A DNA stretch of 64,000 nucleotides, from positions 1 through 64,000 of the forward strand of contig JAUCBJ010001372.1 in assembly GCA_032718475.1 (NCBI GenBank). The letters are read 5' to 3'. The notes below the pieces were generated by a model. The model was not told where the DNA came from. It saw only the letters and a program-made list of their open reading frames with translations, and made no database searches. A program made the position numbers and the translations under genes. Positions within the stretch are counted from its first letter, which is position 1; every line of letters begins with the position of its first letter. The DNA is from Nemertoderma westbladi. Its lineage: Eukaryota > Animalia > Xenacoelomorpha. Of this stretch, positions 1,696 through 50,452 are shown in pieces.

Positions 1696-2289
1696 GAACC
1701 CTTCCACTACAACCACCCTATCATTAATAGATAGCCCACCAGGATGTATACAAGAAGACCTAGGTATATATCTATAGGTCCATGTAACTGAAGAGAACAA
1801 AGTATCCGTCACATCACGTTTTATTTTTGAGAGTAATCAGCTGTTATTTGCGTCGAATTTCCCTTGGAGGGGGATGAATTTTTATTGCATCCAGTTTACC
1901 CCCTTTCTGGCAATGCTATAGTAATTAATTGTTATGGTAATAATATTGTGCAAAATTGAACTCGCCAATAATGTATTGCAAAGATAATTCTTTACTAATA
2001 ATTGTACAGTAGATAGGCCTACAGTATAATTAGTCCAATTATACAGTTACACTAGTTCGATTACATACATGACGTAGTTTTTTGGGGTAAAACAGAGTTT
2101 AATGATTTATTATAGGAATTTTAGTATTATTCCCCAGTAGTTTTCGTACTTTTAGTATTATTAATTTGTACTTTAGTACTTTTCATTCATAAAATCAATT
2201 CATATTATAATTATTTGTTTCTGTAAATTCATACAATATTAATTTCGGTATAAAATCTTACAAGATACAACATTACGTACATTAAATAT

Positions 2290-2448
2290 TTTCGGTACGT
2301 ACCCGGTACGACACTTAACCTACAATAGTAACTACAATAGTTACGGTAGTTAAAGTTCAATAAATGTTTTCGGTACGTACCCGGTACGATACTTAACCTA
2401 CAATAGTAACTGCAATAGTTACGGTAGTTAAAGTTCAATAAATGTTTT
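2290..2448. repeat. Tandem duplication, ~78-bp unit x2
   Basis: TTTCGGTACGTACCCGGTACGA..GTTAAAGTTCAATAAATG occurs twice in tandem. Confidence 0.85.
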
Positions 2449-3059
2449 CATCTCACCATACAAACAAAGTTGTATTTAGTTGACTTTAGAGCAAGTTTGG
2501 TGTTAAATATATTAATTGATGAACTGATGCTATTGATTTAGCCATTTTAATGTAAAATTAATATTTGTAAAAATATCCAATTTATTTAATTATTTATTTT
2601 TTATTTTTATTTATTATGAAAAACTTGCATGCACACAAATAAATTGTAACTAGGTAATAATTGGAGTAAAGTCAAATAATTAGTAAATTACGGTAAATAA
2701 AAAAAATATTATGAATATATTTGACTTGATGCATAGTAAAGACGGAGGTTGATCGGGAAGGCCCATTGCATCAACCACCGGATAGACAATAATAATATGA
2801 ATAATATATTAAATGGTATGTTAAGGCTGATAATATACATCTAATGCACAGTATGTAAGGAACAAAGTTATATTTAGTTGACTTTAGAGCGAGTTTGGTA
2901 TTAAATATATCATTTGGTGAACTGATATCTTTTTTATCTTTTTTCTTCATTATCTTTTTATAATAGAATCCTATTAGTTCCTGGCTATTTCGTAAGTTAT
3001 TATAGATTTATAGATAGGTTTAAACAATATAATTAAATAGGATTCAACGAATAGAATGT

Positions 3060-3925
3060 TCTTCAAGTATGTCGAAGAGGCCGCTATTGTTAGTGGAGTC
3101 TACAGTTCCTAGGATCGAGGCCGAGTTGCCGATTAGGATGGCTATCAGGAGTCTTTGCAGCAGGAATCGATGAGACCGGGGTTCCTGTGTTGCTTGTCGA
3201 ATCTTCCTGCCGACCTCTTTCAGGAATGAGGTTGTTGCTGGTCCTGGCTGGCCAAGCGTTTCGAAGGCTACTGGTGCGAAGAGGTATCCGTGGTCTACTA
3301 GTTCTTTGTACTTTCTGGATTTGGTCTCTTCTTGCTCCTCGGCAACACGACCTCCTGCTCATAGACTGGTAGCGAGATGGCTGGGCGCTAGAGGGTCTAC
3401 GACCGTCGCGTCCCACGTCAGGGACTTACCACGCGACCAAGGGATGAGGGTCATGCCGTCTGGGCGTTTACCGTCCGTTCGACAGAGGCCTGGCGGCTCC
3501 AGGATGGACGGAACACCACAGCTGGAGAGTGCGCGCTTTATGATGTCATTTAGTGCCGTGTAGCGCGGAATCCGCCCCAAGCTCCTCTGGCAGGACAGGC
3601 CATGTAGGCCTTCGGTATCGACTTCCTTACCGCATCTGGCACATGTGTGTTGTTCTGTGACTTGACAGCCTAGTCGAGTAGCGATTGAGAGGCGGAGCTG
3701 ACTGTCAGTTAGCTTTAAACCTAGCGACGACGATGGTAGCGCGTCTATCCAGCAACCGGCGACAGGGTCATCTAAAGAGTTTAGTCGAGCGATATTCTTC
3801 GGAGAAGCGGTGCGGCGAAGTGACGCGAGGTTCTCTTCATGGATCGGGTTTGTCCAAGACTTCTGCATGTTTACAGAGGACGCTGAAGGTTGCTCGCAAT
3901 CAGTGGCCACCGATCTCTTATTGTT
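3060..3925 (-). mobile_element. 5'-truncated CRE-like non-LTR retrotransposon (C-terminal CCHC knuckle + restriction-like endonuclease), pseudogene
   Basis: CARC..HGLSC knuckle and KRPDG..WDATV RLE motif. After an in-frame TGA at ~3359 the frame continues ..KSRKYKEL..FAPVAFETLG..FLLQRL..GNSASILGT, typical of CRE-clade C-termini. Confidence 0.85.
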
Positions 3926-3958
3926 ACAAGAAAAAAATATTAATATATTTATATTTAC

Positions 3959-4505
3959 TGTTAGCTTATTCAATCCCGCTAACACCCCATAAAGTTAAGC
4001 CGATAAGCAATATTGGGGGCCACGAGATTGGGTAATCAACCAACTCGTGCCACCCCAACAAAATGGGAAGGAGAAACACAATGAGGGTCAGGGGCCAAAC
4101 CCCTAACCCAGAGAGAACAGGTGGAGTGAACGGGAACACTCCAAAGGGCGCCAACAAGGGTATCAACCAATCAGAGGGGGGAAAGGCATCGATTAGGTAG
4201 AGTAACAAGGCCAACCGTGCAATATAGCCACTTGGCAGTAATCATTTCAGTTCAGTTATCTCAGTATCATATTGGTGCTAGTTAGGTTAGTTAGTTTAGC
4301 TAGGGAAGGACCGGGACTTTAATTACCGTATCCCGCCTTCTGTATACGACAACATTATCCATATACCTATATCTATATACCCTATATCTATATCAGTTAT
4401 TATATACGACGAACGACACGAACTCCTAATACCTTTCATACACACGGCGGGGACGCGTAAACTAAACAACCGGATAAACCGGGATCCTTCCTGGATCCCG
4501 TCACA
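3959..4505 (+). repeat. 5' LTR (547 bp)
   Basis: TGTTAGC...CCCGTCACA; only 2 mismatches to the 3' LTR seen by eye. Confidence 0.97.
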
Positions 4506-4567
4506 GTAATTAAATCCGAGCTGTTCCCCTAGCCAGCTAAACCACCAGCCACCAATCACCAAGCGAG

Positions 4568-7500
4568 ATGAGCCAGTCGGGAGAGACAACGCCGACGCGG
4601 ACCCCGGACGAAGAATTAACGATCCGCGAGGCCGCAACCAGGCGGTACAGGCCCACAACGCCGGACCCATCGGTAACGGGTCATCCGGCAGTCCAGGATG
4701 AGGGGGGCCGCCTGGAACCCGAGGTCGAGCCAAGAGAAGGAGAGAGCGAGACGGAGGGAGACGGAGACGAGTCGACACGAGACGTGGGTCGACGTACCGA
4801 TGTCGCCGGCCAGCCACAGGCCGAGGGCGACGAGCGGCCCACCGAAACGGCGACGGTGGGGCCGACGGTACGACGCCGGACCCGAAGAGACGGAGGAGAT
4901 GTCGGTACCGATGTCGCCGGCCAGCCACGGGCCGAGAGCGACGAGCGGCCCACCGAAACGGCGACGGTGGGGCCGACGGTACGACGCCGGACCCGGAGAG
5001 ACGGACGAGAGGTCGGCGACGAGGACGTCGGGGTTTCTGATCGACTTCGACGGGCCTACAACGCGACCCGGAGACTATTAAAGGAGGCCAGAGGAGGGGC
5101 GACGATAGACAAGGTAAAACTAAAGAGAGGACTAGGTGAGTCGAATAGACACTTTTATTATCTAATGCGCTTCGGGCAAAGAGGACTGGCCGAGGAGAGA
5201 GCGAGAGGGGTTGCCGAGGAACTGTATGACTTATGGCGGTATGGGGGTATAGAACCTAGCGTAGTGTACGTAGGGCCGTACTTAGTCGATGCCCGGGGAG
5301 TAAAATTAGTGGGTTGGGAGAGACCTGAGGAGGACGAATCCGAGGTTAACCCCGAGGATTCAGCCTCGTCGGTCGGAGGAAGTTCCGGGAGGCGGGGGAA
5401 GGTTAGTAGGACGGGGAGGCGGAGGGAATCCGTTACAACCGATAAGTCTGCTACATCCTCCGTGAAAGAAAGACGGGTGAGAGAGATAAATGCCGCGTAC
5501 CGTCTCGATTTAATAGAGCAAGGTCAAAGGGAAGTAGGTAGACGGTTAGAGGAGGGGAGAGTGCTGCTAGAGAGGGAAATGGCGTTGATTAAGGAAACCG
5601 GAGAGAGGGCCGAAAGGGCCGCGAGAAGCCTTAGGGAGTGTGAGGAAGTAGGGAGGAAGGAACAAGAAGAGCGCGAGGCGAGAGAGAAAATTGAGCGCGA
5701 AAGAGCGTGAGGCGGAATGTAGGGAACGTGAGGTGAGGGAGAAAAATGAGCGCAAAGAGCGTGAGGCGAAAGAGGAAAACGAGTGCAGAGAGCGCGAGGA
5801 GAGAAAGGAAAACGAACGCAGGGAGCGTGAGGCGAGACGAAGGGAGGGGGCTAGAAGAGAGTTGGAATTGGCCGAACGGGATGCACGGGAGTGTAAGGAG
5901 AGAATGGCAAGGAAGGAGTGTGAGCAAAAGGAACTAGAGAAACGTCAAGGTGAGCTTACAGGGTACAAAGCTGTACATACGCGCGAACGGGAATTGGCGC
6001 GAGTAGGGGCGTCTGAGAGTGGGGCTAGCTCGAGTATTTTCGAGGAGCCAGGGGCCGTGGATACATTTATTAATACCCCACTTACAGGGACCGCACGACA
6101 GACCCAAGACTGGTGTGACCGTACGGGCGGGGGGGGGGGGGGGGTAATAATAATGCTATAGTAGACGTCGTTAATATTAATAGTACCGTATGGGATAACT
6201 CTAACCAAACCTTTATTGCAGCAAATAATGCTTTACCTAGTAGCAGTAATTTAAATTTAAGTACAAATAATAATTTCAATTTGAACGTGCAAAATAATTC
6301 AAATAATTTAAATAATGATCCAAGCCCGAATTTACAAAATAATTCAAATGATTTTGTTTCAAACGAACAAATTAATTCCGTTTCCAATATGGGTGCTATT
6401 AACATGAACACGTCGGGCGTGTATGGCCAGGCAGACGGGGGCCTGGTAGGCCGTACAATTGGTAGGTCGGAAGTGGCGGGATTGAGCCAACCCAGAGAGG
6501 GCCTGGTAGGCCACGTAGTTGGTAGGCAGGGAGCGGCTGGGTTGGGTAGACCCAGTGAGGGCCTGGTAGGCCACGTAGTTGGTAGGCAGGGAGCGGCTGG
6601 GTTGGATAGACCCAGTGAGGGCCTGGTAGGCCACGTAGTTGATAGGCAGGGAGTGGCTGGGTTGGACAGACCCAGCGAGGGCCTGGTAGGCCACGTAGTT
6701 GGTAGGCAGGGAGTAGAGGGCCTGGTAGGCCACGCAATAGCAGAGGGGGAGGCGGGGGTGAATAGACCCGACCGCGGTAGGGTTGATGTGTCGACTAGAG
6801 AGGGATATAGTAGCGGGGTGAGGGATAGCGAAGTTAGATGTGGCGAGTGGGGGGGGGGGGCTACAGGGGCCCCACAACAGCGAGTTAGCGGCGAAAGGGG
6901 GGGGGGCAGGGAGTGCTCCACAGCCGTCAGCGGATAATGCGCGGGCCGAAATAGGTAAACCGCAACACCCGGCGACGGAGAGTAATAGGGGGATTGCGAG
7001 TATCCCCAGCGGCGTGCGACCGAGCAGAGAGAGACAGGTTGACGTCGTGAGAGGGCGGACGAAGCGTCGAGCCCGATCAGAAGAGGGAAGAAGAACAGTG
7101 GGGTTTAACCGGGAGGTCGACGAGAGATCTCACGAGCGGGAATACTACACTGAAAGGAGAGGAAGAGAAGACAGTAGTAAAAGTATCGCCGCGAACGATA
7201 GAAGAGCGAGGACGGATAGCGAGCCGTCGGTAGTCGAGATGAGAACGGAGAGTCAGTGGGGTCGGACTCCGGGAGATTGCCGTCGCCCCGGAGAGATGCG
7301 ACCTGGCGAGGTGCATTACGCGCCGATGGAGGGGTACACGATGTACCGGTACGAAGACGAGAACAGTAGAGAGGGAGGTCGAAGAGAAACTTTCCGACGG
7401 AATGTACCTACCGATCGAGAATACGGTAGCCGCGGGGAGGACTATTCGAGAAGAATAAACTTCGATCCCGAGCGACACATGCAGACTGTAGGACATACTG

Positions 7501-10477
7501 TAGGCCTTACTGCACATACCATAGGCCATACTGAGAGAGGCAATGTAGGCGATAGGATAGCGCGGACAACGGGATTAAACCCGGAAGTCGCGGAATACAT
7601 ACCGGCGGGTAGGCCAGAAGCTGATAGGCCTATACCGGTACCAGTACAGCAGTATGACTACAGCATGCAGGGACATAACATATACCCAGGGGAGGGGGGA
7701 ATTATTGCGGATAGGTGTATGGGCCCCAACATATTAACATCAACCCCAGTACCAAACATACCGGTGGGGGGGGGGGACAGGGTGACATTCCCCCATCACA
7801 ATATCAACAATATACCCCGATAGGAGCAAGAACAACGAGACCTTTGGATGAAAATAGGTCGTGTGACACAGAGATATGGAGGGGGCCGCTACCCCCGATG
7901 ACATACCCAAGTCAAAGAAGATCAAGAAATAGGACGGACGAACCGCACCAGACAGGAGAAACTATACAGCATCCATCGAACCCATTGGAAGTGCAGGCGA
8001 TGGGGATGGCCACGTTGATCGATGCGTTGAAAACGAGGATCGAGTTACCACCCGTGGAACCATTCAAATTCGATGGGAGTAGGCCGGAAGAATATCTACA
8101 GTTTCGGCGCATGTATAGTAACGAAATACTAACAAAAAACTTGACGCAGGCGGAGTGCCTAAAGTATCTGCAAGTATACACGGGAGGCCCAGCATACGAT
8201 ATCGTGAGGCAATATCAAGGAATAGAGGGCGGCTTCACGACAGCATGGCGGGCACTGGACAGGGAATACGGGCACCCGGCCAAGATCATCAGACAGACAC
8301 TGAGAGGCATAACATCGGGTGGCCTACAGGATAATCCCGTTAGCATTAAGACGTTCGCTAACAAGGTCGAAAAGGCGCTAATCGTGCTGAAGACGCTAGA
8401 CGCGCCATACGAGCTCAACGCGTCCAATAACATCACCACGATAGCACAGGCACTACCAAACTGGCTGCGCAACAAGTGGAGGAAGATCGCTTTCTCCACT
8501 CGAGACAAGAAGGGTGTGGAACCGGGTTTAGAAGAAATGTCAAGCTTCTTAAACTACGAGGCTGAACTAATAACTGACCCAGTCTATAGCGAAGATAGCC
8601 TGGGAAAGGGACCGAAGACGGATTACCATAGACCGAAACCAGAGCACAATACATCAAACGCATTACCGAGGCTCAGGCAATCATTGCCATATGCAGCGAC
8701 GCAGGGGACTGCAAGTCCACAGCTAGCCGAAGATAAGACAACACCATGGAACGGACAGGGGAACAATAACAACACGAATAAATATAACCCCAGTACGTCC
8801 AGTAGGCCGAATCCAAACAATAAGAATAGTAGGGACTTTGGTACAAACGCAGCTGCGATACGCAATGCACTGTATAAAGAGGGCTACGACCCAAAGAGCA
8901 AATGCCAGCTACACGCAAATGCGCTTCATCAAACCATGAACTGCAGGTACTGGCAGGCGCTACCTAGGCAAGATCAGATAGATTATGCGTTGAGCAATAA
9001 AATCTGCTCGCGATGTGTGATGAGTGGACATAGAGCAAGGGAATGCAAGGAGAAGCCGGTCAAGTTTGGTCAGAGGAGAGGCCAAACGATGGCGACGAGC
9101 ACAGTAGGGGCGAAGAAGAGAGGAACGGTGTTACTTGGAGTAGTACCCGTGCGAGTGATTGGGGAAGGCAATCGATCAGTAACAACACTAATGCTGGTCG
9201 ATAGTGGAGCTGCCTTCACATTAGTCGAGGAATGGGTGGCCGAAGAGATAGGATTGAGAACGAGGCCAAGCAGAATGGCGGTAACAACCATCTCTAGCAA
9301 AGATGAGATCCTGGAGATGAGAACAGGACGGTGCGCAATTGCAGCAGTGGCACCGGGATGCGACTATGGGGCAACCATCGACCCCATCCAAGTGATAGAG
9401 TCAATTAATATCAATGCCAGGCGGCCAACCAACATCGAGGTCGAGCAGTATAAATTCCTGGACGACATTGACTTCTCAATCCCAGATGTGGACGTTAGGA
9501 AGGTATCCATCATAGTAGGAATGGACTGCCCAACGGCCCACGAAAGAATGCAAACGGTCTTCGGCGAAGACAAGCAGTGTGACCCGGTGGCGATATTAAC
9601 ACCATTCGGGTGGACACTGACAGGCCCAATTAAGAGTAATATACCATTCCATGTGTCTGAGAGTTCAGGATGCATGGTGCCAGGAACTGTCGACGAGATA
9701 GAGGAGAGGCCAGAGATGGGCAATAGTGGTAGACAGCTAGAAGTGGAAGCAACACCAAGAGAGTGGGCGGAGGAGAATGGCATGGATGCAGAAGATCTAG
9801 AGACGATGGGTTGGAACAAGAGTCCCAGCAAGCATCGGTATGGAGATGGAGAGGAGCGGACGGCAAAATGTCCGGGGGACAGGCCGGAGGAGTGTCCGGA
9901 AGAGATGCCGGTCCGGTTGGGAGGCATGCCGACAAGGGGGAGGCCGAGCAGGAGGACTAAATGGAAAGGGAGAAGATTTGAGACGACCAGACCAGGGGCT
10001 GAGAAGCCCGTGGGTGGGCGTGTGATGGACAAAGGAGCCGGGAAAGTAGGAGGCGTGCTGCATACGCACGCGGGACTGACAGAGTGCGAGGGGGCATTAC
10101 ATGGGCAGAGATCGTGTATACCGAAGGACGAACGGGGGTCGTCGAGGCCTTTAATGCCAGCACACATATTAAGGGGGAGGCCAGCAGAGGTGGCATCTAA
10201 GATTAAGGAGAAGAACAGGGGCGGCATTATACCGCCGGGCGACACGTTGAAGGGTGGCACTTTGCCGCCAAGGGACGACCACGAGATCAGAAACATAAAT
10301 AACAGACAGCATTTCCAAAGACAGGAGAAAAGGCCACCAGAATTGACAAGGAGAGCGGAGCGAAGAATTAGAGGACCTGTGGGGTGGCAGTGGGAGAGTT
10401 GCCTGCTGGAGGAATCACCCCTTGGGTCGCTGAGTTGTCCAATAGGTTGGACTGGGATGGAAGAGTTAGATCCATAA
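4568..10477 (+). pseudogene. Long gag-aspartic protease polyprotein of BEL/Pao type, broken by ~5 frameshifts, ending in a degenerate integrase C-terminus
   Basis: ORFs 4568-5710, 5691-6161, 6281-6937, 6840-7823 and 7715-10477 join mostly at G-homopolymers. Motifs: coiled coil, PFKFDGSRPEEY (DUF1759-like gag), CQLH..H..C and CSRC..GH..C knuckles, LVDSGA protease (D at ~9200), PVAILTPFGWTLTGP, and RPLMPAHILRG resembling the BEL IN motif LTPAHFL.G. Confidence 0.85.
6438..6735 (+). repeat. 60-bp in-frame tandem repeat in gag (EGLVGHVVGRQGAAGLDRPS)
   Basis: About 5 copies of GAGGGCCTGGTAGGCCACGTAGTTGGTAGGCAGGG. Confidence 0.9.
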
Positions 10478-10639
10478 AAGGTGCGGGCAGAGGTGTTACC
10501 TGTCTGTTAGAAGGGGCACCTTAGTGGAGTTAGAGAAGAGTTTAGTCGTCCAAGCTTTGGACTGAGGGGGGTGGGATTGAGGGCGAGACGCCCTTCCCAT
10601 ACATAAAAAAATAAAAAAAAATAAAAAAAATAAAATAAT

Positions 10640-11310
10640 AGTACATAGTAGGTACGCAGTTAGTAGGCAGGAGTTAGTCAGTAAGAAGGTACGTAGTACC
10701 TAGAGTTAGTTAGTTAGTTAGTTAGGAGGTACGTAGTACCTAGAGTTAGTTAGTTAGGAGGTACGCAGTACCGTTAGTTAGAGAAGAGTTAGAGGGTACA
10801 TAGTACCTAGAGTTAGTTAGTTAGGAGGTACGTAGTACCGTTAGTTAGAGAAGAGTTAGAGGGTACGTAGTACCGTTAGTTAGAGAGTTAGAGGGTACGT
10901 AGTAGCGTTAGTTAGAGGAGAGTTAGAGGGTACGTAGTACCGTTAGTTAGAGAGTTAGAGGGTACGTAGTACCTAGAGTTAGAGGAGAGTTAGAGGGTAC
11001 GTAGTACCATTAGTTAGAGAGTTAGAGGGTACGTAGTACCGTTAATTAGAGAGTTAGAGGGTACGTAGTACCTAGAGTTAGAGAGTTAGAGGGTACGTAG
11101 TACCGTTAGTTAGAGGAGAGCTAGAGGGTACGTAGTACCGTTAGTTAGAGAAGAGTTAGAGGGTACGTAGTACCGTTAGTTAGAGGAGAGTTAGAGGGTA
11201 CGTAGTACCGTTAGTTAGAGAAGAGTTAGAGGGTACGTAGTACCGTTAGTTAGAGAAGAGTTAGAGTTAGAGGGTATGTAGTACCGTTAGTTAGAGAGAG
11301 AGTTAGAGGT
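10640..11310. repeat. Minisatellite inside the LTR element (~32-35-bp unit GAGTTAGAGGGTACGTAGTACCGTTAGTTA)
   Basis: About 20 direct copies, preceded by an (AAAAAAAAT)n run. Confidence 0.93.
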
Positions 11311-11785
11311 AAAAGGGTATATGAGATATAGATATTAGTTAGCAGTTAGTAGCGAGAGGGGGGCATATGAGTACAGCTGGGTAAATCGTGTGGCCACACG
11401 ACGCATACTGCTGTACTGCTGTACAGGCCCACAGTGTAGGCCAGAATGTGGATTAGAGAATAGAACAATCCATAGGCAATAGTAAGTAGTAGGACAGTAG
11501 AATTAAAATTAAATAAAAAATAAATAGAATAGGGCTGAAAGTTGCAAATAATGGTGTAAAACAAGGAAAGTTATTCTGGAACATAATTAAAGTAACGGAC
11601 AAAAAATGAGCCTAATTTACTCATTTACTAGCTTCAAAATTAATTAGTAACAATTTAGGTTAAAAGGCGCAGTTAAGTAAGAAATAGGCCATTATCGGAC
11701 CGTACAGAACATCCTAGATACATCACTCATCTGTATTGCGCCTTGGTAAGGCACCACCTTGCAGGTGAGCGAGTGAGTGTTCGGA

Positions 11786-13843
11786 ATGGCGAGCAAATTG
11801 ATCAGAAAGAGAAAGGCGGAGTCAGGAGGAAAGGAGATACTGGTGGATTTCACCGAGAGGCATCCGGAAGAGAAGACGAGAGGATACTACGAGAGGTTGG
11901 AAAGGGGTCACGCGGCACGAGCGCTGCATGATCGCTTCCGGGAGATGCACGAACAGCGGCTGGTCGGGACCTACGGGACGCCGTCGCTGGACAACGCGAT
12001 CTTCCAACACTTCCACTACGTGGTGAAAGGGGACGAGGCGAAGTTCGGGATTCCGAAGTACCCGAGGGAATCACCGAGGAAGGACTGGAAGAGATTCATA
12101 GAGTCCGTCAACAGGGGAGGATATATGATCCTAGACGACGAGGGAACCGTGGAAGACGAGGAGGGTTCGAGACGAGGATCGGCGGGGTCGGCCAGGACCA
12201 TACTCCTACATTTGGGGGACATTACATTACAATGGGGACATCTTCTTATTCGATCTAGGAACGTATGGGAAGAAGGACGGGCCGAAATTAAACCGGTTAC
12301 CGAAAGCGGTACAAGTCTTGGTAAGAGAGAAGTCGACGACGAAAGTAGGATCGGCGATTCGCGAGGATGCGGAGAGAATCATCGGTCCGGACGCCACCAA
12401 CCTCCTGGATATGCAGAAGGTCTTTATGGCTATGACGGCACCGGATGGGTTGGGGGTAGTCGAAAACACAGGCCAATGCGGGGCGGTGGCAATGGGCCAA
12501 TTATTGGGGCTCGTGTGCCACAAACCGATGGATTGGGGGAAGTTCAGGGAAGAATACGGAGCAGAACTAGCGAACTCGCTAAAGTGGGGAGCGAGACCGG
12601 GAAAGCAAGAGGTATATCAATTCCGCAGAGGAGCGATAAAGGTATATCAGAAGCGATATATCCTGCAGGAAGATTGGATGATGATAAGTTTGCTTAACTT
12701 ATTTATGACCGTGGTTATCGAGAGGGAACCAGGGGCATTTCTGTTATCGGGATCACCCCTAAGCTACAGGAGAGCCTTTAAAATGGCCTTCGACGGTCTG
12801 GTAGACCACCCGGGGCTGAAGGGTGAGTCGGTGTACTACAACAGCCAGCATCTGGTAGACGGGGAGACGGATACGCCGTATCAGAGATGGGAGCAGCTAG
12901 AAACGGATAGACGAGAAGCGAAGCGACTGGAAGAAGTCGCCAGACGGGAGAGGATAGAAGCAGAGGAGAGGGAAGAGGAGGCCAGGACACAGAGTTACGG
13001 CTTCAAGGAACAGGCAGGCTTAGACGAGCTTCATTGGACTTCGTCAGGGAGTTCGGGGGAGTCTCTAGGGCGAGAACTGGGATGGACGGTGGGATCACCG
13101 AAACAGTCGACGTCGGGGTTGCAAATGACGCCCATACCAGCGGGCGCCGAAGGCGACCAACCGCCAAGGAAGTTAAGGGAGCTAGAGGGATGGAGAGCTA
13201 CGGGCGAGAGCCAAGGCGGGAAGGGACATAGTGGATCCATCGGGATACCGGGGTTGGAGCCACTGCCAGAGGAGGAAGAGGACGACGACGAGTTCGGAGG
13301 GGTGCCGCCCATCGAGAGGATTGGCCACTCGGACACGGACTGGGTTGGCGGAAGGGTGGTGACGGCCAGTGGGGCGATGGCCTTCTGGAACAGATCCGGC
13401 AAGTGGACCTGGGTGCACTCTTCCTTATCAATCAGGAGGCTCACATGGAAATCATAAAGCGGAGGCTACCGTTTACCTATCAAGAGGTAGCAATGGCGGC
13501 GTCGTATGCCGGAGTAATGAATACACAAAGATATTTGGACAGATGGACGCCACAGAACCGAGGGGAGTTTAGGGATTTCTTGGCGGAGCACGTACCGCAA
13601 GCAATGAAGATGATCCTATGGGACGCCACCAGAGGGAGACAACAGGACCACTCTGAGGAGCCACCGGCGAAGCGATATCGGGCACTAATAACACCAGCGC
13701 CCAAGGAGCCAACAACCAGAATCAGCAGGGAGGTGGCGGCGAAGGTCCGAAAGCAGATAGCGGATCCCAGAGGAGCGGTGGTAACCAAGAAACGACCCAG
13801 GGAAGAGGACGCCAGGGGGAACTATCCCCAGAGGAACAGATAG
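11786..13843 (+). CDS. Second gene of the LTR element: ~685 aa after correcting 2 frameshifts (~12164, ~13310), with a central OTU-like cysteine protease motif set
   Basis: ORFs 11777-12697, 12318-13457 and 13403-13843 overlap, and the downstream frames are open back to the shift points. Motifs: GLGVVENTGQCGAVAMGQLLG (Cys 12477), EDWMMISLLNLFMTVVI, ESVYYNSQH (His 12849). An acidic linker follows. Confidence 0.6.
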
Positions 13844-14554
13844 GTTCCCAGGGCCGAGGGAGAGAAACTGGGACTTGGACGTGGTACGCCTGGAAGGCGC
13901 CGCGTGGGACGTACGAACTATTAAGTACAAATCTAATTAATGCAAATAATCATATAAGTGCAATTTGTATGTACGTACGTAGTAATTAGTAATCTACAAA
14001 TATACGTTCGGAGTAAGTACTATAGTCATACAACCTTTCTCAATTAGCTACTGGGACTGGGGGGATAACTGACTATGGCACTATGGACGAGACACCAGAC
14101 AATTTCACACTTCTTGAGTGCGACGGCACAAGAGGGGAGGGAGATTCGTCAGAAGGGATGAAGCAGTCGAAGTGGGGTTGAGGAACGGAACAATAGTGCG
14201 AAGTGCGGAGAGAGTGCGGACGCAATTCTAGTGTGTGGGGGGGGGGGAGAATAAGAGGCTGAGTGAGGGACGAGGAGGTCCGAGGGTATGAGAGAGTTAG
14301 GGTGAGAGTGGAGAAGAGATAGGGCGAAAGTGTTGGGGAAACAAAAGTCGCGTGAGAGGTGAGCGCGATTGGCCCGACATGAGACGCCAGGCATATAGGG
14401 TAGCGTTATCATACCCATAGGGAGCGGCCTGGAAAGCCGGCTCCGAGAGAAAAGAATTCCACCCCACACCCGATACTAGATCGGGATCCAGCGGGATTGT
14501 AGCGCACTTAAGGTGGATGCTATCTTCTCACCGGGAAGATAGCATGGGGGGGAG

Positions 14555-15101
14555 TGTTAGCTTATTCAATCCCGCTAACACCCCATAAAGTTAAGCCGAT
14601 AAGCAATATTGGGGGCCACGAGATTGGGTAATCAACCAACTCGTGCCACCCCAACAAAATGGGAAGGAGAAACACAATGAGGGTCAGGGGCCAAACCCCT
14701 AACCCAGAGAGAACAGGTGGAGTGAACGGAAACACTCCAAAGGGCGCCAACAAGGGTATCAACCAATCAGAGGGGGGAAAGGCATCGATTAGGTAGAGTA
14801 ACAAGGCCAACCGTGCAATATAGCCACTTGGCAGTAATCATTTCAGTTCAGTTATCTCAGTATCATATTGGTGCTAGTTAGGTTAGTTAGTTTAGCTAGG
14901 GAAGGACCGGGACTTTAATTACCGTATCCCGCCTTCTGTATACGACAACATTATCCATATACCTATATCTATATACCCTATATCTATATCAGTTATTATA
15001 TACGACGAACGACACGAACTCCTAATACCTTTCATACACACGGCGGGGACGCGTAAACTAAACAACTGGATAAACCGGGATCCTTCCTGGATCCCGTCAC
15101 A
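14555..15101 (+). repeat. 3' LTR (547 bp)
   Basis: Direct repeat of 3959-4505, preceded by the PPT and followed by TSD TTTAC. Confidence 0.97.
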
Positions 15102-15249
15102 TTTACTTTGTTTGTATGGAGAGATGAAAACATTTATTGTACTTTGCCATATTGTAAAACAAATAAATTGACAGTGCCAGTTGCCTGCTGCCATGTTTTC
15201 CTCTATTTTATTGACATTCAACTCCTATGTATGCTCATTGATCCCACCA

Positions 15250-15510
15250 CTCTAGAAACATGCGCAAAGCTGCATAATGCTTCGCAGGACATTGCTTTCG
15301 TCGTGAGGACCAGCCTGTGAACAATCTAGTGCTTTGGCAGCCTCAAGGAGAAAATAAGCAGGTGGACCTGGACACTGGACAGCGCATGATTTTTGTGAGA
15401 CGCCTCTTAATTAATGGACACACACTGACTGGCATTGCAGATGCGGATAGTCTCGCGAAAAGTCATGGATGAGAGTTGTGGAGGAACAATTTTGTCAATA
15501 AGCCGGCATA
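15250..15510 (+). mobile_element. Degenerate 3' fragment of an RTE-like LINE (same family as 38600-38900, 47940-48025, 50085-50452)
   Basis: GCAGGACATTGCTTT..GTGAGGACCAGCC and CACTG..TTG.AGATGCGGAT..GTCATGG are shared among the copies. Confidence 0.7.
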
Positions 15511-17284: not shown

Positions 17285-20200
17285 TGAACAAGTGCTATTT
17301 CTAATTATAGTTTATTAATTCAGAAATGATACATATCTATATATTAATTTAGTATACCGGTATTTTAGTACAGCAGTATATATGTGCTGACTTAGGCCTA
17401 GGGCCTACCTAGTACAGTATGTAATATCCCCCCCATGACAACGATATTGCTGTTTCACGAAATGGGACAGCTGTTGAGATGTCAGAATTGTTTTATCCTG
17501 AGATCATAGGAGAGTCTGTAAAATATCGATTATAAATTTGATCCTAAATGTAAATATATGTCATGGTAGGATCCATTAACAAAATGAACTATCTACTAAA
17601 CTTTGGAATTTCACCCATCACCAAACTCTCTAAAATACATAGGCAAGGTACTAAGTATTGTATATGATTATATCGCAGTTAGCAATAAACATGATTTAAA
17701 GTTATATATTTATAAACTTCCTAAAGTTTGAATTAGTGAAGATTCTGCTCTTCTGAGTAGATTTGAGAAGCTCAGCAGAAGATATTGTGTTGCTGCTGTT
17801 GATCCAAGCTTCATTCCCATGCAGCCTTTCAGGTGGAATCCCTGCATTTGATCTGGTAGATCTTCTCAGCCCGGGTTCATTCATTGTATTTTTGGTTAGT
17901 GGTTGAGGCCTTGCCTGGGGAGGCTTGGCCTGTTTATCCTTGATAGGAGTAGGAGGTGTTTGTAATCCCGTGTTTGATGGTGATGTCAGTTTCGCCGGTG
18001 TTGATGGTTGATGTGATATACTGCACTGGGACTAGCTTCCCTAGCACTTTTCAAAGGTGACTGTAACTGATCACAGACTATTTTCGCCCGATTCACATCA
18101 GAGGGCATGACATGGGTAGGGCTATCCTCTTCCCTATCTTTAGGCATTGAATTGGCTGTAGGAGTGGCCTGCTGTTGATATTTGCTGTCATATGCGGTTT
18201 GAGGTAGTTGAGGTGGATCTTGGCATGCCTGATGATGTTTTGAGTCTATAGTGGCTGGGGTGTTAGCGGGTGTTCCCCAGTTAGGTACGACCATCCTTGT
18301 AGTTGGGTGTCCATAGTTAAAAGGATCTATTTTTCGCAGAAATCTTCTGTTCCGGAGGGTTAATCTACGCGAACCCTCCAAACATACAACATATTGATCA
18401 TTATCCCTAGTCTCCATGATTCGACCAGTGCGGTCCCACCTGGTGGGATTGTTTCCTGACTGATTCTGGACCCGAACAATGTCACCCACCAGGAGGACAG
18501 GTAATTACTTGGATTTTGCATCTAGTTTTTCCCATTGTTTAGCAAGTCTGGTGCGGAGGGCAATCTCCTTCTCATTCCAAGTGTCCTTCCATGTCTGATG
18601 CACCTGACTCTGTGGCCCAAATACCTGTTCATTTGGAGGTAGAGGGAGAGTATCCCTCAGGGTTTTGCCTAAGAGGACTTGAGCTGGCGACATGCCACTA
18701 TCTTGCTCAGGTGTGTTTCTAAACTGCAACACACCACGTAGGAACTCATCTGTGTTCAGGTCACCTGAGTCGCTGGTGTTGTCCCTAAGAAGCCTCTTCA
18801 TAGACTTAACTGCCACCTCAGCCCTACCATTTGACTGTGCAAAGTATGCTGATGATTGCCTGTGTGCTACACCCCATCTCTTAAGAAAATCTGTAAATTC
18901 CTTAGCTGCGAACTCAGGGCCCCCATCACTCGAAATTTCTATTGGAACTCCATATGCTCCAAAAAGTAGTCGTAATGCCTGTGTGAGACCTTGGGATCCA
19001 CAATTCTCATTCTTTCTTGTGATATGGAATATACTCGGCCAATTTGTGAATCTGTCAACAGTGACCAAGTAGTAATTACCTTTGAGGTGGAAGTAGTCAG
19101 CGGCAATGGATTCAAATGGCATGGAAGGGGTTGTAGGCTCAGCAGGAGGCAAGCTTGACTGGCTGGGAGCAATAGAATCACATGTGGTGCATTTTGACCG
19201 GATAGTCTGTATATCTGAAGTAATCCCTGGCCAGAACACTGATGCCATAGCTCTACCTGTCATTTGAGTTGTCCCCTGGTGTGCTCCATGAAGGTGTTCG
19301 CAGACCTCATCACGGAGGCTCGGTGGAATAACCACACGGTCTTTATACATTACAACACCGTCTGTGACAGATAAATCATCCCGGTATTTCCAGTACTGGA
19401 TCAGCTGTGGGGACAGATTGCTTGCCCTCTCAGGGAAACCATTTTCTGCCATATCTATAAGCTGAAGAAGATGAATGTCTTTGTTTGTCTCATCTCTGAC
19501 CCTTTCCCAAGTTACTGCCTTAAGCTTGTCTAAACCAGACCTGGCAGCGGCAATAATGGCATCCTCAATGTCATCTATTTCACGAATAACTCTGATGGTT
19601 GCTAGGCAATCATCTTCAATGCCTATGAGAGTTTCGTCAGCCTCTAAGTTGCTAGGGTTTCTCGATGTTGCATCAGGGGCAGGGATATTTTTCCCAGGTA
19701 CATGGAAGATTCTGAATCTCCATGACATTGTTTTCTCCTTCAAGCTAAGAATTCTTCTGTTTGTTATCTCATCCAGTAACCTGTCACCAAGTATTTTGAT
19801 AAGTGGTTTGTGGTCAGTCTGGATAATAAGATCTGCGCATCCCCATGTAAAGAACTTAGTATCCTCTAGTGACCATGCAACAGCGAGACATTCACCCTCT
19901 ATAGGCCAGTAGTTTTCCTCAGCCTTCTTGAGGAACCGTGAACCTGCTAGTGTTATCCTCCAGCCACTTGGACAACATGTAGTAATGTCAGAATTACATT
20001 CACAGTATTTCTGGTAAAGGAAGTAACCAATCCCCTTCTTGCACCAGTCTGGGCTAAGGCAGGTCTTCCTCGATGGGTCAAATATTTCTACACCCTCTAT
20101 GATAGCCTGGCTTATCTCCAACTTAGACTGAATAAAAGAAGCCTCCAGGTCATCATTCCAGTGGAATCTTGTCTTTGGACTGAGGAGAGGCTTGAATGGG

Positions 20201-22940
20201 GACATAAGGCCTGTGAGACGACCATAGTGTGAGACCTGGTTGACCAGGCCAAACCATGCACGAACATCAGTTATGTTGGTAGGTCGTGGGAAATTCTTGA
20301 TTGAGTCAATATACTTGGGGAGTGGCTTGACATTGTTATTGGTAAGAAGGAATCCTGCAAACTCCACAGACTTTTGGCAGAATTGGAATTTCTTGGGATT
20401 TAGGATTATCCCATGTTTCCCCACGAGGTCCAGGTAGTCCATAATCCTTCTCCAATGTGTCTCCAAGTCATTGTCCCATAAAATTGTGTCATCGACACAT
20501 TTCGACTTTCTTTCTACATCAGCTATGAGCTTATCATATCGCATGTTGTACCCATCACCACTGGAAAGGTACCCCTGGGGGGCAACATTGTAATGGTATC
20601 GACCATTCTCTGTGATAAAGGTTGTGAGGTGTCGGTCCTCTTCCTTTAATGGGACAGAGTGATATCCATTCCAGGCATCAGTTACTGTTCTGTATGTATT
20701 GCTGGGTACAATCCGTGCCTGTTTGAATGGTGGAATCAAGTGGTATGATTCTCTGATGCAAACTTTGTTAAGTGGTCTGAGGTCAATGGTCCTTCGAGGT
20801 GAACCATCCGGCTTCGGCACAACATGCATTCTGTGACACCAGGTGGTAGGTGTCCCTGGCTTTACTTTAGACAAAACTCCTAGAGCCTCATCCTGATCAA
20901 GCAGAGCCTGGACCTCCTCTCTCCAATGGATTGGCACAGTTGCAGCAGTGTGCACTGCATGTGGAGTGGCCTCTGGGTCAATATGTATTGAAATAGGTGG
21001 GCCAGACATCATGGGCAGACGTTGGTGCGGACACCTATTGAATGTGGATGCAGAATAGTGTTCCAATAGCCATTGACGCATCTTAGTGATATTTTCCTCC
21101 CTGGCAGGGAAGGGAAATTCCTTTGGTTGGGGTGGTGGCTGTTGGTGATAAGGGCATCCACATGGAGCTGTTCCATTCAAACCAATACTACCTTTGGCAT
21201 TGTCACTGACTCCACATACTGATGCAGACCCAATCTTAGGAAAATCATTTCCAATTATCTGGAGTTGTTGCATAGCCTGTTTACTCAGGTAGAACAGAGA
21301 TGTTGAGTCAGTTACATATGCCATTATTGCTGTTTGGAGTTTTTTACCACTATCAGGGTTGACTCCGGATATGCGTAGGAAGATGGCTCCTAGTATATGG
21401 ATCTCCTCATGGTTGATAGCCCGTAGCCTATTCTTTACATGTGCTAAGTCTTTCTTCTTGAGTCCTAGGTGGTGTAGCATCTTTAGACCAATGAGGTTGG
21501 ATTGGGCACCTGTGTCAGTTATAGCTTCAATTGATGTGGGCCTTATCTTAGGGAAAGGAAGCCGGAGGTGGCTATAGTCAGATTGGTCAGTAGTCACTAT
21601 CAAATTTATCCGTGGCTGGGAACTAGCTGCTGCATTTTTCCAACCATCGGTACCATCGAAAATAAAATTGTCCAAACCCACTGTAGGATGGCCTTCTCTA
21701 GTTGAGGCCAGTTCAAACTTCATTGACGACATGAAGTTGAAAAAAGCATTGTTTTCTGGGATGGTTGAATTGGATTTTGTGCTCATTGTCATAGCTTTCC
21801 GACTATTGGACTGTCGCCAGCAGGCTTTGCATTTGGGAAAGGTAAGGAGTTTGTCATCTTTCCCCTTGCTGCCCAAGCGTATTTTGTGTTTGAGAAACTC
21901 TTTTCCACATTCCTCACACTTTGCTTTCAATAGGAGTCTTTTATCATTTGGATGAATCTTTTTGAAACTGAATGTGGCTGCTTGGTTTGATTCATGGCCT
22001 GGTTGAGGGGCTATAGATCTGATGGCACGCTCCTTTGTTTCAATTAAGGCAATTGTGTCGACCAGACTCATTTCATCCATTTTGTCAGTCCCAAGGACTT
22101 CAAGCTTGATATCTTCATCTGCCAGTCCTGTTATAACGACTAATTTAATGATAGCTTGACTGTAGTCGACCTTCAGATTACAACCGCCACATGTCTGAGT
22201 GAATCCACAGGTCTGGGCCTTTCCCCTAACCCTGGCAGCAAACACACGAATTCGTTCACCATGGTCTTGTCGCAGTGACAGTAATTCTGTCTGTTGGACA
22301 GAAATGGCCACAGAGACAACTGCCAGCTTTTTAATGGCTGCCAATAATTCAGCCTCTGACTTTGTGTGTGCAGTGGGATCATCCCTATGGATGTCTGACT
22401 TGAGGTCACTATCACAGCAGTTTAACAGGTGGACTGGAAGGGAAGCTGGGTTTATAGTTGTTGCCGACTTGAATATTTCCCACTCCCGCTCAAATGCATT
22501 CCAGCTATCCTCATAGATTCCCCCCTTAACCTTAGGTGCCTCAATCTTGGGAGCCTTTTGCTTTGCCGCTGGTGCGGTAGCCTCAGCGTGATCGGCATCA
22601 GGTGGGTGGGTGGACTGTAGGTGGTGCTGGAGCATTACTGCCCCGGCAGCGTCAGCGACGTCCGGGGTCCTAAACCCACAGTTATGGCGATGTGGCAACG
22701 AATAGTCGGCATTTTCAATAAGTGCTTACTTCTAGGTCTAGCCTGAACGCTGAACATATAGCATTTCAAATCACCATATCATTACAGTATATGTATCATG
22801 AACAAGTGTTATTTCTAATTATAGTTTATTAATTCAGAAATGATACATATCTATATATTAATTTAGTATACCGGTATTTTAGTACAGCAGTATATATGTG
22901 ATGTCTTAGGCCTAGGGCCTACCTAGTACAGTATGTAATA
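17285..22940 (-). mobile_element. Gypsy (Mag-like) LTR retrotransposon, near full length
   Basis: 142-bp LTRs at 17285-17426 and 22799-22940 (3 mismatches), TSD ATAAG (17280-17284, 22941-22945), PPT GGGGGGGA on the minus strand at ~17427-17434, and a gag-pol ORF. Confidence 0.96.
17702..22712 (-). pseudogene. Gag-Pol polyprotein (gag, protease, RT, RNase H, integrase) with a frameshift near the ATG, an in-frame stop at 18505 and a 3' frameshift
   Basis: MPTIRC..CGFRT N-terminus, ITDTGAQ protease, CVDD RT, TDHKPL RNase H, HGAH..CTTC plus AADYF/SSDGG/RAE integrase. Domain order PR-RT-RH-IN. The frame reads through TAA into LPVLLVGDIVRVQ, and an LRRSTR tail is present. Confidence 0.95.
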
Positions 22941-29699: not shown

Positions 29700-30330
29700 G
29701 GGGGGGGAATAGAGGTCTAGGGGAGCAGTTGGAGGTGTGAGGGGAAAGGTAGAGGTGCAAGTGGACCAGTTGGAGGAGCGAGAGGACTAGTTAGTGCGAG
29801 AGCAGTAGGTAGAGGTGCGAGAGGAGAATGGGAGGAATTGTGGAGGGTGTGGGAGACAGGGTGAGAAGTACATGAGGATCTGTGGAGGGTGTGGGAGACA
29901 GGGTGAGAAGTAGAGGAGGATCTGTGGAGGGTGTGGGAGACAGGGTGAAAAGTACAGGAGGATATGTGGAGGGTGTGGGAGACAGGGTGAAAAGCACAGG
30001 AGGATCTGTGGAGGTTGTGGGAGACAGGGTGAAAAGAGCAGGAGGATCTGTGGAGGGTGTGGGAGACGGAGTGGGAGACGGAGTGGGAAGTACATGAGGA
30101 TCTGTGGAGGGTGTGGGAGACGGAGTGGGAAGTACAGGAGGATCTGTTGAGGGTGTGGGAGACGGAGTGGGAGCTATGGGAGGATCTGTGGAGGGTGTGG
30201 GAGACGGAATGGGAAGTACAGGAGGATCTGTGGAGGGTGTGGGAGACGGAGTGGGAAGTACAGGAGGATCTGTGGAGGGTGTGGGAGACGGAGTGGGGAG
30301 TACATGAGTTTCTGTGGAGGGTGGAGAGGA
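29700..30330. repeat. 42-bp purine-rich minisatellite (GGAGGATCTGTGGAGGGTGTGGGAGACGGAGTGGGAAGTACA)
   Basis: About 12 copies visible. Confidence 0.95.
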
Positions 30331-30959
30331 AACTGATGAACAATTTATAGGTTTTGACTAACTGCTCAGCCATAGTGATATACAGTTATAAACTCGGTAA
30401 TAAACTCGTCATACTTTGTGAATTTTCATATAAATCGTCCGTCACTAAAGTACCTAAAGTGGTTAAAATGTTTTATAAACTCTTTATGTTTATTTGATAA
30501 ACTATAATATTTTATAATTTTTCGAGAAATGGGGACCATAAAGATTTATTATGATTGATTTTATTATCAAATAAGCTTTATTGGGATGTGTTACTGGGAT
30601 CAGGAATGGCTGCATAGCTCCCACTCAGAGACGAATTCTAGGTTAAGTTAACATATCAGTGTAATTACAACTGGTGTTACATAGTGGGACAAATTGTTAC
30701 AGGCATCGGAAATCACCATTCAAGGGCTCTGATTGGCTGATATCGGGCGTTACATTGTGGGGCAAGTGTTACAGGAATGGATATCTGTTTTTCTCAATTA
30801 TTTGTTACCATGAGGTCGGGGCTATTGGGAAATTACCACCATTGAATTCAGCGCATCGAGAGCTTTCTGGTGATATATAATATTACATACTTTGGGAAAC
30901 TTTTTTTTTTTTACAAAAAAAATAATTTTTTTGGCCAATTTTTTGTGATTTTGAGCCTG

Positions 30960-50084: not shown

Positions 50085-50452
50085 TACTACTAGGATCGGC
50101 ATGCTGCATTGCAGCTGCATTTTTAAGAATGCTGTGCCGGCTTATCGACAAAATTGCACCGCCACAACTCCCTATCACCCATGACATTTGCTAGATCATC
50201 CGCATCTTCAAGGCCAGTGTCCTTTAAGATGCGTCTCAAGAAAGTCATGGGCTGTCCACCATGCTTATTCACTCCATGAGGCTGCCAAAGTACAAGATTA
50301 TGCACTGGCTGGTCCTCACGGCGAAAGCAATGTCCTGCAAAGCGGAGGCGATTTTGTTCTAGTGTCAAGCTTGGGGGAACCAATGAGACACCTCCAATGT
50401 TATATAGTGTCTGGTTGGAGATGTGTGCATTGTACTTGACACAATGAACCCG
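50085..50452 (-). mobile_element. 5'-truncated RTE-like LINE inserted in the recombinase gene
   Basis: RLRFAGHCFRRED..LWQP..W C-terminus, (TAG)n tail, and TSD GCGCACAGAAC (50074-50084, 50453-50463). Confidence 0.9.

What the first reader, a model, noticed from the sequence alone, without database searches (positions are those of the whole stretch)
3959..15101. Young non-autonomous BEL/Pao element that lacks RT and carries a second gene with an OTU-like protease motif
Seen: near-identical 547-bp LTRs, a perfect TSD and a PPT indicate recent retrotransposition. The pol region jumps from protease (DSG; GWTLTGP) directly to a decayed integrase tail, with no YxDD RT or RNase H. A further ~4 kb (minisatellite plus a ~685-aa gene) lies before the 3' LTR. 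Knowledge: BEL/Pao elements normally encode one gag-PR-RT-RH-IN ORF, sometimes with env. Inference: this is a helper-dependent capsid+protease element carrying a cargo gene. This is the best candidate for an undescribed system in the window.
Basis: partly seen in the sequence, partly recalled or inferred. Interest (0 to 1): 0.88.

Follow-up and report, generated by a model that had tools for sequence, protein, structure and literature searches.

The report
BEL/Pao retrotransposon with exonuclease-like gene
This is a recently inserted, broken copy of an abundant jumping-gene family, likely of an animal, that lacks its copying enzymes and is likely moved by longer relatives; its conserved extra gene likely encodes an RNA-trimming exonuclease, not a protease, and the element possibly primes its own copying without a tRNA.

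Summary
The anatomy is real: 547-bp LTRs with 2 differences, a 5-bp TSD, a PPT, BEL-type gag (DUF1759) and protease, and no RT or RNase H. This copy is broken, with four frame breaks in gag and two in ORF2, so there is no intact 685-aa gene.

OTU is not supported (z 0.2). ORF2 reads instead as a DEDD 3'-5' exonuclease-like (WRN/RNase D) protein: Atlas 0.92, ordered-block test z 6.1; standard HMM and fold tests are inconclusive. Among copies, 17 of 20 listed ORF2 variants are synonymous.

Public DNA runs show a high-copy family in which ORF2 is common, while this copy's RT-less middle is about 15-50 times shallower. It is therefore likely a minority deletion lineage, with ORF2 a family gene rather than private cargo.

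There is no tRNA-type primer site; the 9 bases after the LTR pair with the LTR itself (18 of 5000 shuffles), which suggests self-priming.

Verdict: a new variant of a known kind. Exonuclease third genes are known from rotifer Gypsy elements; I found none reported for BEL/Pao.

The parts
3954..3958 (.). 5' target-site duplication (TTTAC)
3959..4505 (+). 5' LTR, 547 bp, TG...CA
4318..4326 (+). LTR segment exactly complementary to the first 9 bases after the LTR (candidate self-primer; looser pairing extends to about 4298)
   Evidence: 18 of 5000 and 3 of 2000 shuffles; forced fold 2.9 kcal/mol above the minimum
4327..4456 (+). predicted long-range stem inside the LTR (4327-4345 with 4437-4456), stacked on the candidate primer duplex
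   Evidence: prediction
4480..4500 (+). perfect 8-bp hairpin at the LTR end
   Evidence: sequence
4506..4514 (+). primer-site position: no TGG, not tRNA-type; pairs with 4318-4326
4568..7776 (+). N-terminal gag region (charged, coiled-coil-like and repeat-rich), broken by four frame changes
   Evidence: no Pfam family over its cut-off
8069..8485 (+). DUF1759 (BEL/Pao capsid-region domain)
   Evidence: E 2.9e-11
8903..9049 (+). two Cys-His boxes; the third box typical of Pao is not recognisable
   Evidence: PMC554778 passage
9146..9628 (+). aspartic protease (DSG at 9200-9208) through GWTLTGP
9641..10047 (+). in-frame, unassigned stretch where RT, RNase H and the integrase core should be; low depth in other samples
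10048..10525 (+). decayed integrase remnant (end of core and C-terminal tail); related contigs join at 10048 and 10500
   Evidence: motifs recalled and read by eye; tables 7-8; no Pfam hit
10672..11309 (+). minisatellite, 32-35 bp unit, about 17 copies, length-variable among copies
11786..13843 (+). ORF2 region in three frames, breaks at about 12216-12230 and 13418/13419; basic NLS-like motifs at both ends (recalled pattern)
12122..12700 (+). DEDD 3'-5' exonuclease-like domain: D12134-x-E12140 (ExoI), KVG...D at 12342-12368 (ExoII), Y-xxx-E-D-W at 12657-12677 (ExoIII)
14546..14554 (+). polypurine tract
14555..15101 (+). 3' LTR, 547 bp, 2 differences from the 5' LTR
15102..15106 (.). 3' target-site duplication (TTTAC)

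Best explanation
This is a young, RT-less, frame-broken copy from what is likely a minority deletion lineage of a high-copy BEL/Pao family, likely mobilised in trans by longer relatives, and the family's conserved extra gene likely encodes a DEDD-type 3'-5' exonuclease-like protein that would trim the element's own RNA ends. SHOWN: the anatomy, the recent insertion, many copies in at least three samples, purifying selection on ORF2 across copies, decay of this copy, and the absence of a tRNA-type primer site. INFERRED: (1) the copy is transcribed from its LTR, packaged by Gag from intact relatives, and copied and integrated by their RT and integrase, since the cis signals (LTR ends, PPT, primer region) are kept; (2) priming uses LTR bases 4318-4326 paired to 4506-4514, Tf1-style (about 0.55); (3) ORF2 has the exonuclease fold (about 0.75). 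Given that fold, the role I think most likely is nuclear 3'-end trimming of element RNA, possibly maturing the primer (about 0.4), ahead of anti-silencing (about 0.3) and an inactive RNA-binding scaffold (about 0.3). No activity was tested.
For: Anatomy. Family: contigs from 4 DNA runs (at most 3 samples) cover 30 of 30 bins (29 for X5). Median site depth over a flank contig, X1/X2: protease 1093x/693x, ORF2 351x/389x, post-protease zone 21x/16x. An X2 contig identical to 9890-10088 bridges 10048, so the RT-less middle exists in a second study's sample. Longer contigs stop aligning at 9619, 9632 and 9649 and run on for 240-813 unaligned bases; others join at 10048 and 10500. Selection: 13 of 15 listed variants at 12533-12794 are synonymous, 14 of 15 at codon position 3 (p 2e-6); 4 of 5 synonymous in the ORF2 N-terminus; 5 of 12 in the post-protease zone. 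Exonuclease: Atlas first hit 0.92, with 26 of 30 hits PF01612 clusters and 170 shared features; colinear alignment to 20 WRN-like enzymes; block test z 5.9 and 6.1, 0 of 300 shuffles, best of 41 window ORFs. Self-priming; precedent in PMC4600332 passages. Exonuclease ORF3 precedent: PMC5408684.
Against: The exonuclease call has no significant standard test. Pfam, NCBIfam, PDB-sequence and homologue searches were blank or irrelevant. Home-made HMMs gave 1-2 bits for the 20- and 40-sequence profiles (1-11 of 1000 shuffles as high) and -1.9 bits for the RNase D/PolA set; glocal z was -1.3 to 1.2; hhalign probability was under 1% (8-11 of 200 shuffles); AlphaFold pLDDT was 35. Blocks were chosen after seeing the alignment, and with the 40-sequence profile the Gypsy pol (21.5) scored about the same as ORF2 (21.1). 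Atlas scores of 0.9 or more arise in 4-10 of 100 shuffled proteins. ExoIII has E where D is usual. RT in the longer relatives was never seen; they could be other RT-less variants. Summed contig depths are not copy numbers and the flank baseline may itself be a repeat. The post-protease frame stays open for 278 codons (0 of 2000 shuffles), which pure decay does not require. The primer duplex is not in the minimum-energy fold (pairing probability 0.18 at most), its energy is unremarkable for 18-32 nt (78-165 of 500 shuffles), and the start site is unknown. All 8 listed variants at 7102-7474 in gag are non-synonymous, which is unexplained.
Confidence: 0.6

Rival explanations
1. The whole family is RT-less: a long-lived semi-autonomous Gag+protease+ORF2 family (like wheat Sabrina_SA) that borrows RT and integrase from a more distant BEL lineage, with a fast-changing dispensable middle.
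For: The integrase remnant looks far more decayed than the difference between copies in protease or ORF2 (by eye); the middle occurs in several variants (22 contigs at site 10110 in X1); the frame after the protease stays open; no RT was seen in any contig; precedent in PMC9744471 passages.
Against: Depth in 9678-10475 stays about 10-30 times below its flanks even at 80% likeness; related contigs carry at least 240-813 other bases after the protease, and the loose letters before 10500 read (by eye, recalled motif) as a better-kept integrase end; post-protease variants are not biased to synonymous (5 of 12).
Confidence: 0.25
2. ORF2 has the exonuclease fold but works against host silencing or immunity, either degrading small RNA or cDNA or, if catalytically dead, acting as an EXD1/Maelstrom-like RNA-binding decoy. 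It would have nothing to do with priming.
For: ExoIII has E instead of D; NLS-like motifs; inactive DEDD derivatives act in piRNA pathways (PMC5408684 discussion); rotifer DEDDy ORFs occur in unrelated retroelement classes, which argues for a general accessory role.
Against: Acidic residues are present at all four expected positions, and the ExoIII E codon varies only synonymously among copies (12671). There are no functional data either way.
Confidence: 0.3
3. ORF2 is an OTU-like cysteine protease (deubiquitinase).
For: A G-Q-C-G motif at 12462-12482, a W at 12675 and a Y-Y-N-S-Q-H at 12834-12851 fall in roughly OTU order in a forced alignment to 15 viral OTU-like proteins.
Against: HMM -1.3 bits, 208-284 of 1000 shuffles as high; block test z 0.1-0.2, 121-135 of 300 shuffles; no OTU cluster among the Atlas rows shown; the Cys lies inside the span that aligns to the exonuclease.
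Confidence: 0.05
4. This is a one-off rearranged or mis-assembled copy and ORF2 is non-coding chance sequence.
For: Six frame breaks, three of them at G-runs that are typical long-read error sites; no ORF2 homologue in any protein collection.
Against: Strong third-position bias in ORF2; the RT-less junction is identical in another study's run; perfect TSD and near-identical LTRs.
Confidence: 0.03

Closest known systems
Juno and Vesta LTR retrotransposons of bdelloid rotifers with a DEDDy-exonuclease ORF3 (PMC5408684: passages and whole Discussion read)
   Same: An exonuclease-like extra ORF in the env position, a modified DEDD motif (DEED there), and no demonstrated activity or function.
   Different: Those elements encode pol and are recalled as Gypsy-type; this one is BEL/Pao-type and this copy lacks RT. 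That paper saw no significant departure from neutrality within the genome; here ORF2 variants are strongly synonymous. Homology between the two ORFs was not tested (no rotifer sequences on hand).
BEL/Pao LTR retrotransposons, Belpaoviridae (PMC8742986 whole text; PMC554778 and PMC3118150 passages)
   Same: LTR length in range, DUF1759 gag, Cys-His boxes, DSG protease, PPT, and protease-to-integrase order of the remnants.
   Different: No RT or RNase H; no tRNA-Arg or tRNA-Gly primer site; 11.1 kb despite the deletion (4.2-10 kb given for the family); the extra gene is exonuclease-like rather than env-like.
Semi-autonomous and non-autonomous LTR families: wheat RLG_Sabrina_SA (GAG-Pro only) and non-autonomous Angela (PMC9744471 passages); rotifer TelKA2n, which keeps its env-like ORF (PMC5408684 passage)
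   Same: Loss of RT and integrase with continued transposition; kept gag-protease or kept extra ORF.
   Different: Plant Gypsy/Copia or rotifer elements. Here the RT-less form looks like a minority of the family and this copy's gag is broken.
Self-priming Tf1/Tj1 group (PMC4600332 passages)
   Same: The primer-site position is complementary to a segment of the element's own LTR, directly at the LTR boundary.
   Different: Those are Ty3/Gypsy elements with the primer at the transcript's 5' end; here the start site is unknown and the duplex is not the minimum-energy fold.
WRN-like / RNase D DEDDy 3'-5' exonucleases (Pfam PF01612)
   Same: Order and spacing of ExoI, the beta-hairpin, KVG...D (ExoII), W and Q-x-x-Y-x-x-x-acid-x-W (ExoIII).
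   Different: Below every curated cut-off; E at ExoIII; insertions of about 10-15 residues; long unassigned N- and C-terminal parts.

Membership tests
BEL/Pao (Belpaoviridae) | LTRs of 0.2-1.2 kb with TG...CA ends, a short TSD and a PPT | tested here: met
   ranges from PMC8742986
BEL/Pao (Belpaoviridae) | BEL-type Gag (DUF1759) and DSG protease | tested here: met
BEL/Pao (Belpaoviridae) | Triple Cys-His box | tested here: inconclusive
   two boxes seen, third not recognisable; Tas also lacks the triple box
BEL/Pao (Belpaoviridae) | RT, RNase H and integrase in pol (autonomous member) | tested here: not met
   filed as a defective derivative, not an autonomous member
BEL/Pao (Belpaoviridae) | 18-nt primer site for tRNA-Arg or tRNA-Gly | tested here: not met
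   no TGG after the LTR; host tRNA set not available
BEL/Pao (Belpaoviridae) | Placement in an RT phylogeny | not testable with these tools
   RT is absent and no relatives' RT was retrieved
DEDDy 3'-5' exonuclease (PF01612) | Score above the Pfam cut-off | tested here: not met
   home-made HMMs weak
DEDDy 3'-5' exonuclease (PF01612) | ExoI D-x-E, ExoII D and ExoIII Y-x3-D in order and spacing | tested here: inconclusive
   order met (z 6.1; blocks chosen post hoc), but ExoIII reads Y-x3-E-D; filed as exonuclease-like, not as a member
DEDDy 3'-5' exonuclease (PF01612) | RNase H-like fold | tested here: inconclusive
   model pLDDT 35, best Z 4.2 to unrelated chains; Atlas features 0.92
DEDDy 3'-5' exonuclease (PF01612) | Metal-dependent 3'-5' exonuclease activity | not testable with these tools
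   needs an assay
OTU cysteine protease | Profile match and ordered Cys/W/His motifs | tested here: not met
   (reference set of 15 viral proteins only)
Tf1-type self-priming elements | Primer-site position complementary to own LTR, with no tRNA site | tested here: met
   9 exact bases anchored at the LTR boundary, 18 of 5000 shuffles; 3 of 2000 with gaps
Tf1-type self-priming elements | Complementary segment is the transcript's 5' end and is cut by RNase H | not testable with these tools
   no raw RNA reads; two candidate initiators, at 4247 and 4393
Semi-autonomous Gag-Pro family (Sabrina_SA-like) | Entire population lacks RT/IN and keeps intact Gag-Pro | tested here: inconclusive
   RT-less middle is a minority by depth; relatives' middle not read; this copy's gag is broken

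The most novel reading that the evidence does not exclude
A BEL/Pao family that has replaced the host tRNA primer with its own RNA and carries a dedicated 3'-5' exonuclease to make it: the enzyme would trim a transcript 3' end (a cut 5' piece, or the genomic RNA's own tail in the 3' LTR at about 14922) back to the duplex with the primer site, giving RT its 3'-OH. RT-less satellites like this copy would ride on that machinery.
Probability: 0.1. Interest if true: 0.85.

Novelty: new variant of a known kind. Interest (0 to 1): 0.5.

Why it matters
Exonuclease-like third genes of retrotransposons are described from rotifer elements, with no function and no sign of selection. This family would extend them to BEL/Pao, with clear purifying selection and many copies, so the gene's role becomes testable by copy comparison and RNA-end mapping. 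Their co-occurrence with a non-tRNA primer site gives a concrete hypothesis for what such nucleases do. The RT-less state itself is ordinary.

Tried and rejected
No whole genome is held, so copies were seen only as short contigs.

Homologue searches with nothing usable:
- ORF2: (one weak repeat-protein hit outside the domain).
- Gag-protease.
- The protein searches covered 'near' lengths only, so fused or full-length relatives were not candidates.
- Atlas on the ORF2 N-terminus: best 0.80, chance level.

Structure and profile tests:
- AlphaFold single-sequence model had pLDDT 35 and the fold search was uninformative.
- hhalign, local HMM and glocal HMM against 40 bacterial PF01612 domains were not significant; the glocal script had no positive control.
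- No OTU references were found in 401 bacterial genomes, so 15 distinct viral OTU-like proteins from 21 loci were used.

Corrected along the way:
- My first placement of the ORF2 break (12164) was about 50 bases too early; contigs place it at about 12216-12230. Searches used the early placement, and repeats the block and HMM tests.
- The forced fold was one base out of register and is replaced.

Expression: no RNA holder is listed. Run X6 (RNA only by guess, another organism label) holds three ORF2 contigs at depth 2-4 and none in 9450-10475; it was found with ORF2, so it is not used as evidence.

The neighbouring intact Gypsy element was considered as helper and rejected: a different superfamily, with no LTR similarity in the blastn.

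Literature: the phrase 'bel pao' never matches because papers print a slash, so searches are weak on that term.
Full report
1. Observation. The LTRs (3959-4505, 14555-15101) are 547 bp, end TG...CA and differ at 2 positions; TTTAC flanks both ends, and a 9-base purine run precedes the 3' LTR. No second copy lies in the window and no genome is held. The frame 7715-10474 has DUF1759 and an aspartic protease but no RT, RNase H or integrase family, whereas the neighbouring Gypsy frame shows all three in the same scan (9 proteins). After GWTLTGP (9608-9628) the frame stays open for 278 codons (0 of 2000 dinucleotide shuffles). Its last part reads by eye as a decayed end of a BEL integrase (motifs recalled; no Pfam hit). 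The copy is not intact: gag changes frame four times, three of them at G-runs, and ORF2 lies in three frames.

2. Is it a family? Six public runs hold part of 11400-14500, five under one organism label (7 rows listed). Contigs of four DNA runs (at most three samples; one may be the window's source) cover 30 of 30 bins of the element, 29 for X5. In a second lay at 80% likeness over 9450-12850, bin depth in X1 is 139,000 in the protease, 2,000-12,000 across 9678-10475, 120,000 at the integrase end and 27,000-91,000 in ORF2. Median site depth over a flank contig (X1/X2) is 1093x/693x for the protease (3 sites), 21x/16x for the middle (8 of 12 sites) and 351x/389x for ORF2 (18 of 21 sites). These are summed contig depths, not copy numbers, and the flank may be a repeat. 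The RT-less middle is real and shared: an X2 contig matches 9890-10088 without difference, and 22 contigs in X1 vary at site 10110. Related contigs, about 11-14% different, stop aligning at 9619, 9632 and 9649 and continue for 813, 330 and 240 bases (my reading of the record coordinates), and others join at 10048 and 10500. Other copies also carry different sequence before 13419. I infer that this copy belongs to a minority deletion lineage, while ORF2 belongs to the family at large. RT in the longer relatives was not seen.

3. Is ORF2 a gene? Of the 40 variants listed (of 292), I scored 35, dropping 4 non-coding sites and 1 inside the break. ORF2 has 17 of 20 synonymous, with 14 of 15 at third positions in 12533-12794 (p 2e-6); the post-protease zone has 5 of 12. 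Several of the ORF2 variants come from the same diverged contigs, so they are not independent events. Of the 40 listed (of 898) I scored 28, dropping 3 outside frames and 9 clustered sites: 10 were synonymous. The 14 sites at which at least 90% of X1 depth differs from the window include 11 non-synonymous, among them all 6 in the rear of ORF2. I read this as a selected family gene with decay private to this copy's line. The 8 sites at 7102-7474 in gag are all non-synonymous, which I cannot explain.

4. What is ORF2? Sequence searches found no relative. The Atlas returned 3'-5' exonuclease clusters (PF01612) for 26 of 30 hits, best 0.92 with 170 shared features, a score that 4-10 of 100 shuffled proteins reach. 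Added to an alignment of 20 bacterial PF01612 domains, mostly short WRN-like ones, ORF2 is colinear through the beta-hairpin, the KVG...D block and the Q-x-x-Y-x-x-x-acid-x-W block. An eight-block ordered test scored z 5.9 (0 of 300 shuffles, best of 41 window frames, in the low range of held-out true members) and z 6.1 with the break placed where the contigs show it. With all 40 references z is 3.4-3.5, and the Gypsy pol scores about as high. The blocks were chosen after seeing the alignment. Local HMM, glocal HMM and hhalign were not significant, and the single-sequence model was unusable. The same block test with 15 viral OTU-like proteins gave z 0.1-0.2, and their HMM gave -1.3 bits. I put the exonuclease fold at about 0.75 and OTU at about 0.05. 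Acids occupy ExoI (12134, 12140), ExoII (12366) and ExoIII (E at 12669, D next); the E codon varies only silently.

5. Primer site. BEL/Pao elements are described with an 18-nt site for tRNA-Arg or tRNA-Gly (PMC8742986, whole text). Here no TGG follows the LTR. Instead, the first 9 bases (4506-4514) are the exact complement of LTR 4318-4326 (18 of 5000 shuffles), and looser pairing runs to about 30 bases (3 of 2000 shuffles; rank 8 of 2002 interior windows). With this duplex forced, it stacks on a long LTR stem, with a perfect hairpin at 4480-4500, 2.8-4.6 kcal/mol above the minimum and with pairing probability at most 0.18. Duplex energies alone are mostly unremarkable (13-165 of 500 shuffles). 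This matches the layout proposed for Tj1 and shown for Tf1 (PMC4600332 passages), but the start site is unknown. I noticed this, which shows unchecked AI notes of the same idea for BEL/Pao in other genomes; these are not independent support and they lower the novelty within the scan.

6. Mechanism. Shown: cis signals intact, recent insertion, broken coding frames. Inferred: the RNA is packaged and copied by proteins of longer relatives, and probably primes on its own LTR segment. The ORF2 protein of intact relatives has NLS-like basic motifs (pattern recalled) and is most likely a nuclear nuclease that trims element RNA, possibly including the primer end. Anti-silencing or an inactive scaffold are close rivals. 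None of this was assayed.

7. Comparison with what is known. DEDDy ORF3s are described for rotifer Juno and Vesta elements and for Athena retroelements, with function unknown (PMC5408684: passages and Discussion; cited as a known accessory domain in PMC6338049, part 1 of 4; PMC6431247 passages). Gag-protease-only families are described in wheat (PMC9744471 passages), and a non-autonomous element keeping its extra ORF in rotifers. I found no report of an exonuclease ORF or of self-priming in BEL/Pao. Searches: (listings). 'Exonuclease' does not occur in the main text of PMC3118150 or PMC8556966; PMC3601003 passages name chromoviruses as still hairpin-primed. Searches are weak on the 'BEL/Pao' term, subscription papers and Repbase entries were not searched, and supplements were not opened. 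I recall an exonuclease-like region being reported for the nematode Gypsy element Cer1; (listing only) did not confirm it.

8. Verdict. It is a new variant of a known kind: a BEL/Pao family with a selected exonuclease-like extra gene and a probable self-primer, seen through a defective RT-less copy. Interest 0.5.

Noticed in passing
window 3044-3958 (-): The element sits at the truncated end of a non-LTR retrotransposon fragment with a restriction-like endonuclease motif (recalled), broken by a stop at 3359-3361. Contigs covering 3700-3919 run on into other sequence, so this flank is probably a repeat.
   Followed up: partly
window 17285-22940 (-): Gypsy-type element: open 1406-codon frame at 18505-22725 with RT, RNase H and integrase and 142-bp direct repeats, 97.9% alike, at 17285-17426 and 22799-22940.
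   Followed up: partly
window 4330-4467: One DNA contig in X3 skips 138 bases inside the LTR, close to the span of the predicted long-range stem, leaving the candidate primer segment and the LTR end in place.
   Followed up: no
window 14482-14499: Sequence 55-70 bases before the 3' LTR is complementary to both the LTR-end hairpin arm and the LTR start (seen by eye; duplex -30.5 kcal/mol, no control).
   Followed up: no
window 7102-7474: All 8 listed copy variants are non-synonymous in the open gag frame and none is at codon position 3; unexplained.
   Followed up: partly
window 3700-15400: A/G transitions outnumber C/T about 2:1 on the + strand among copies (330 vs 156 places in X1); the + strand is 55-76% purine, which may explain it.
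   Followed up: no
window 27535-33104: 572-nt inverted repeats, 98% complementary, 4.4 kb apart, around a 42-bp tandem array: probably a DNA transposon.
   Followed up: no
window 50408-51133 (+), 54979-56007 (+), 56664-59149 (-): ORFs that look by eye like a tyrosine recombinase, an integrase-core transposase and a HECT-like protein (labels recalled, not scanned).
   Followed up: no
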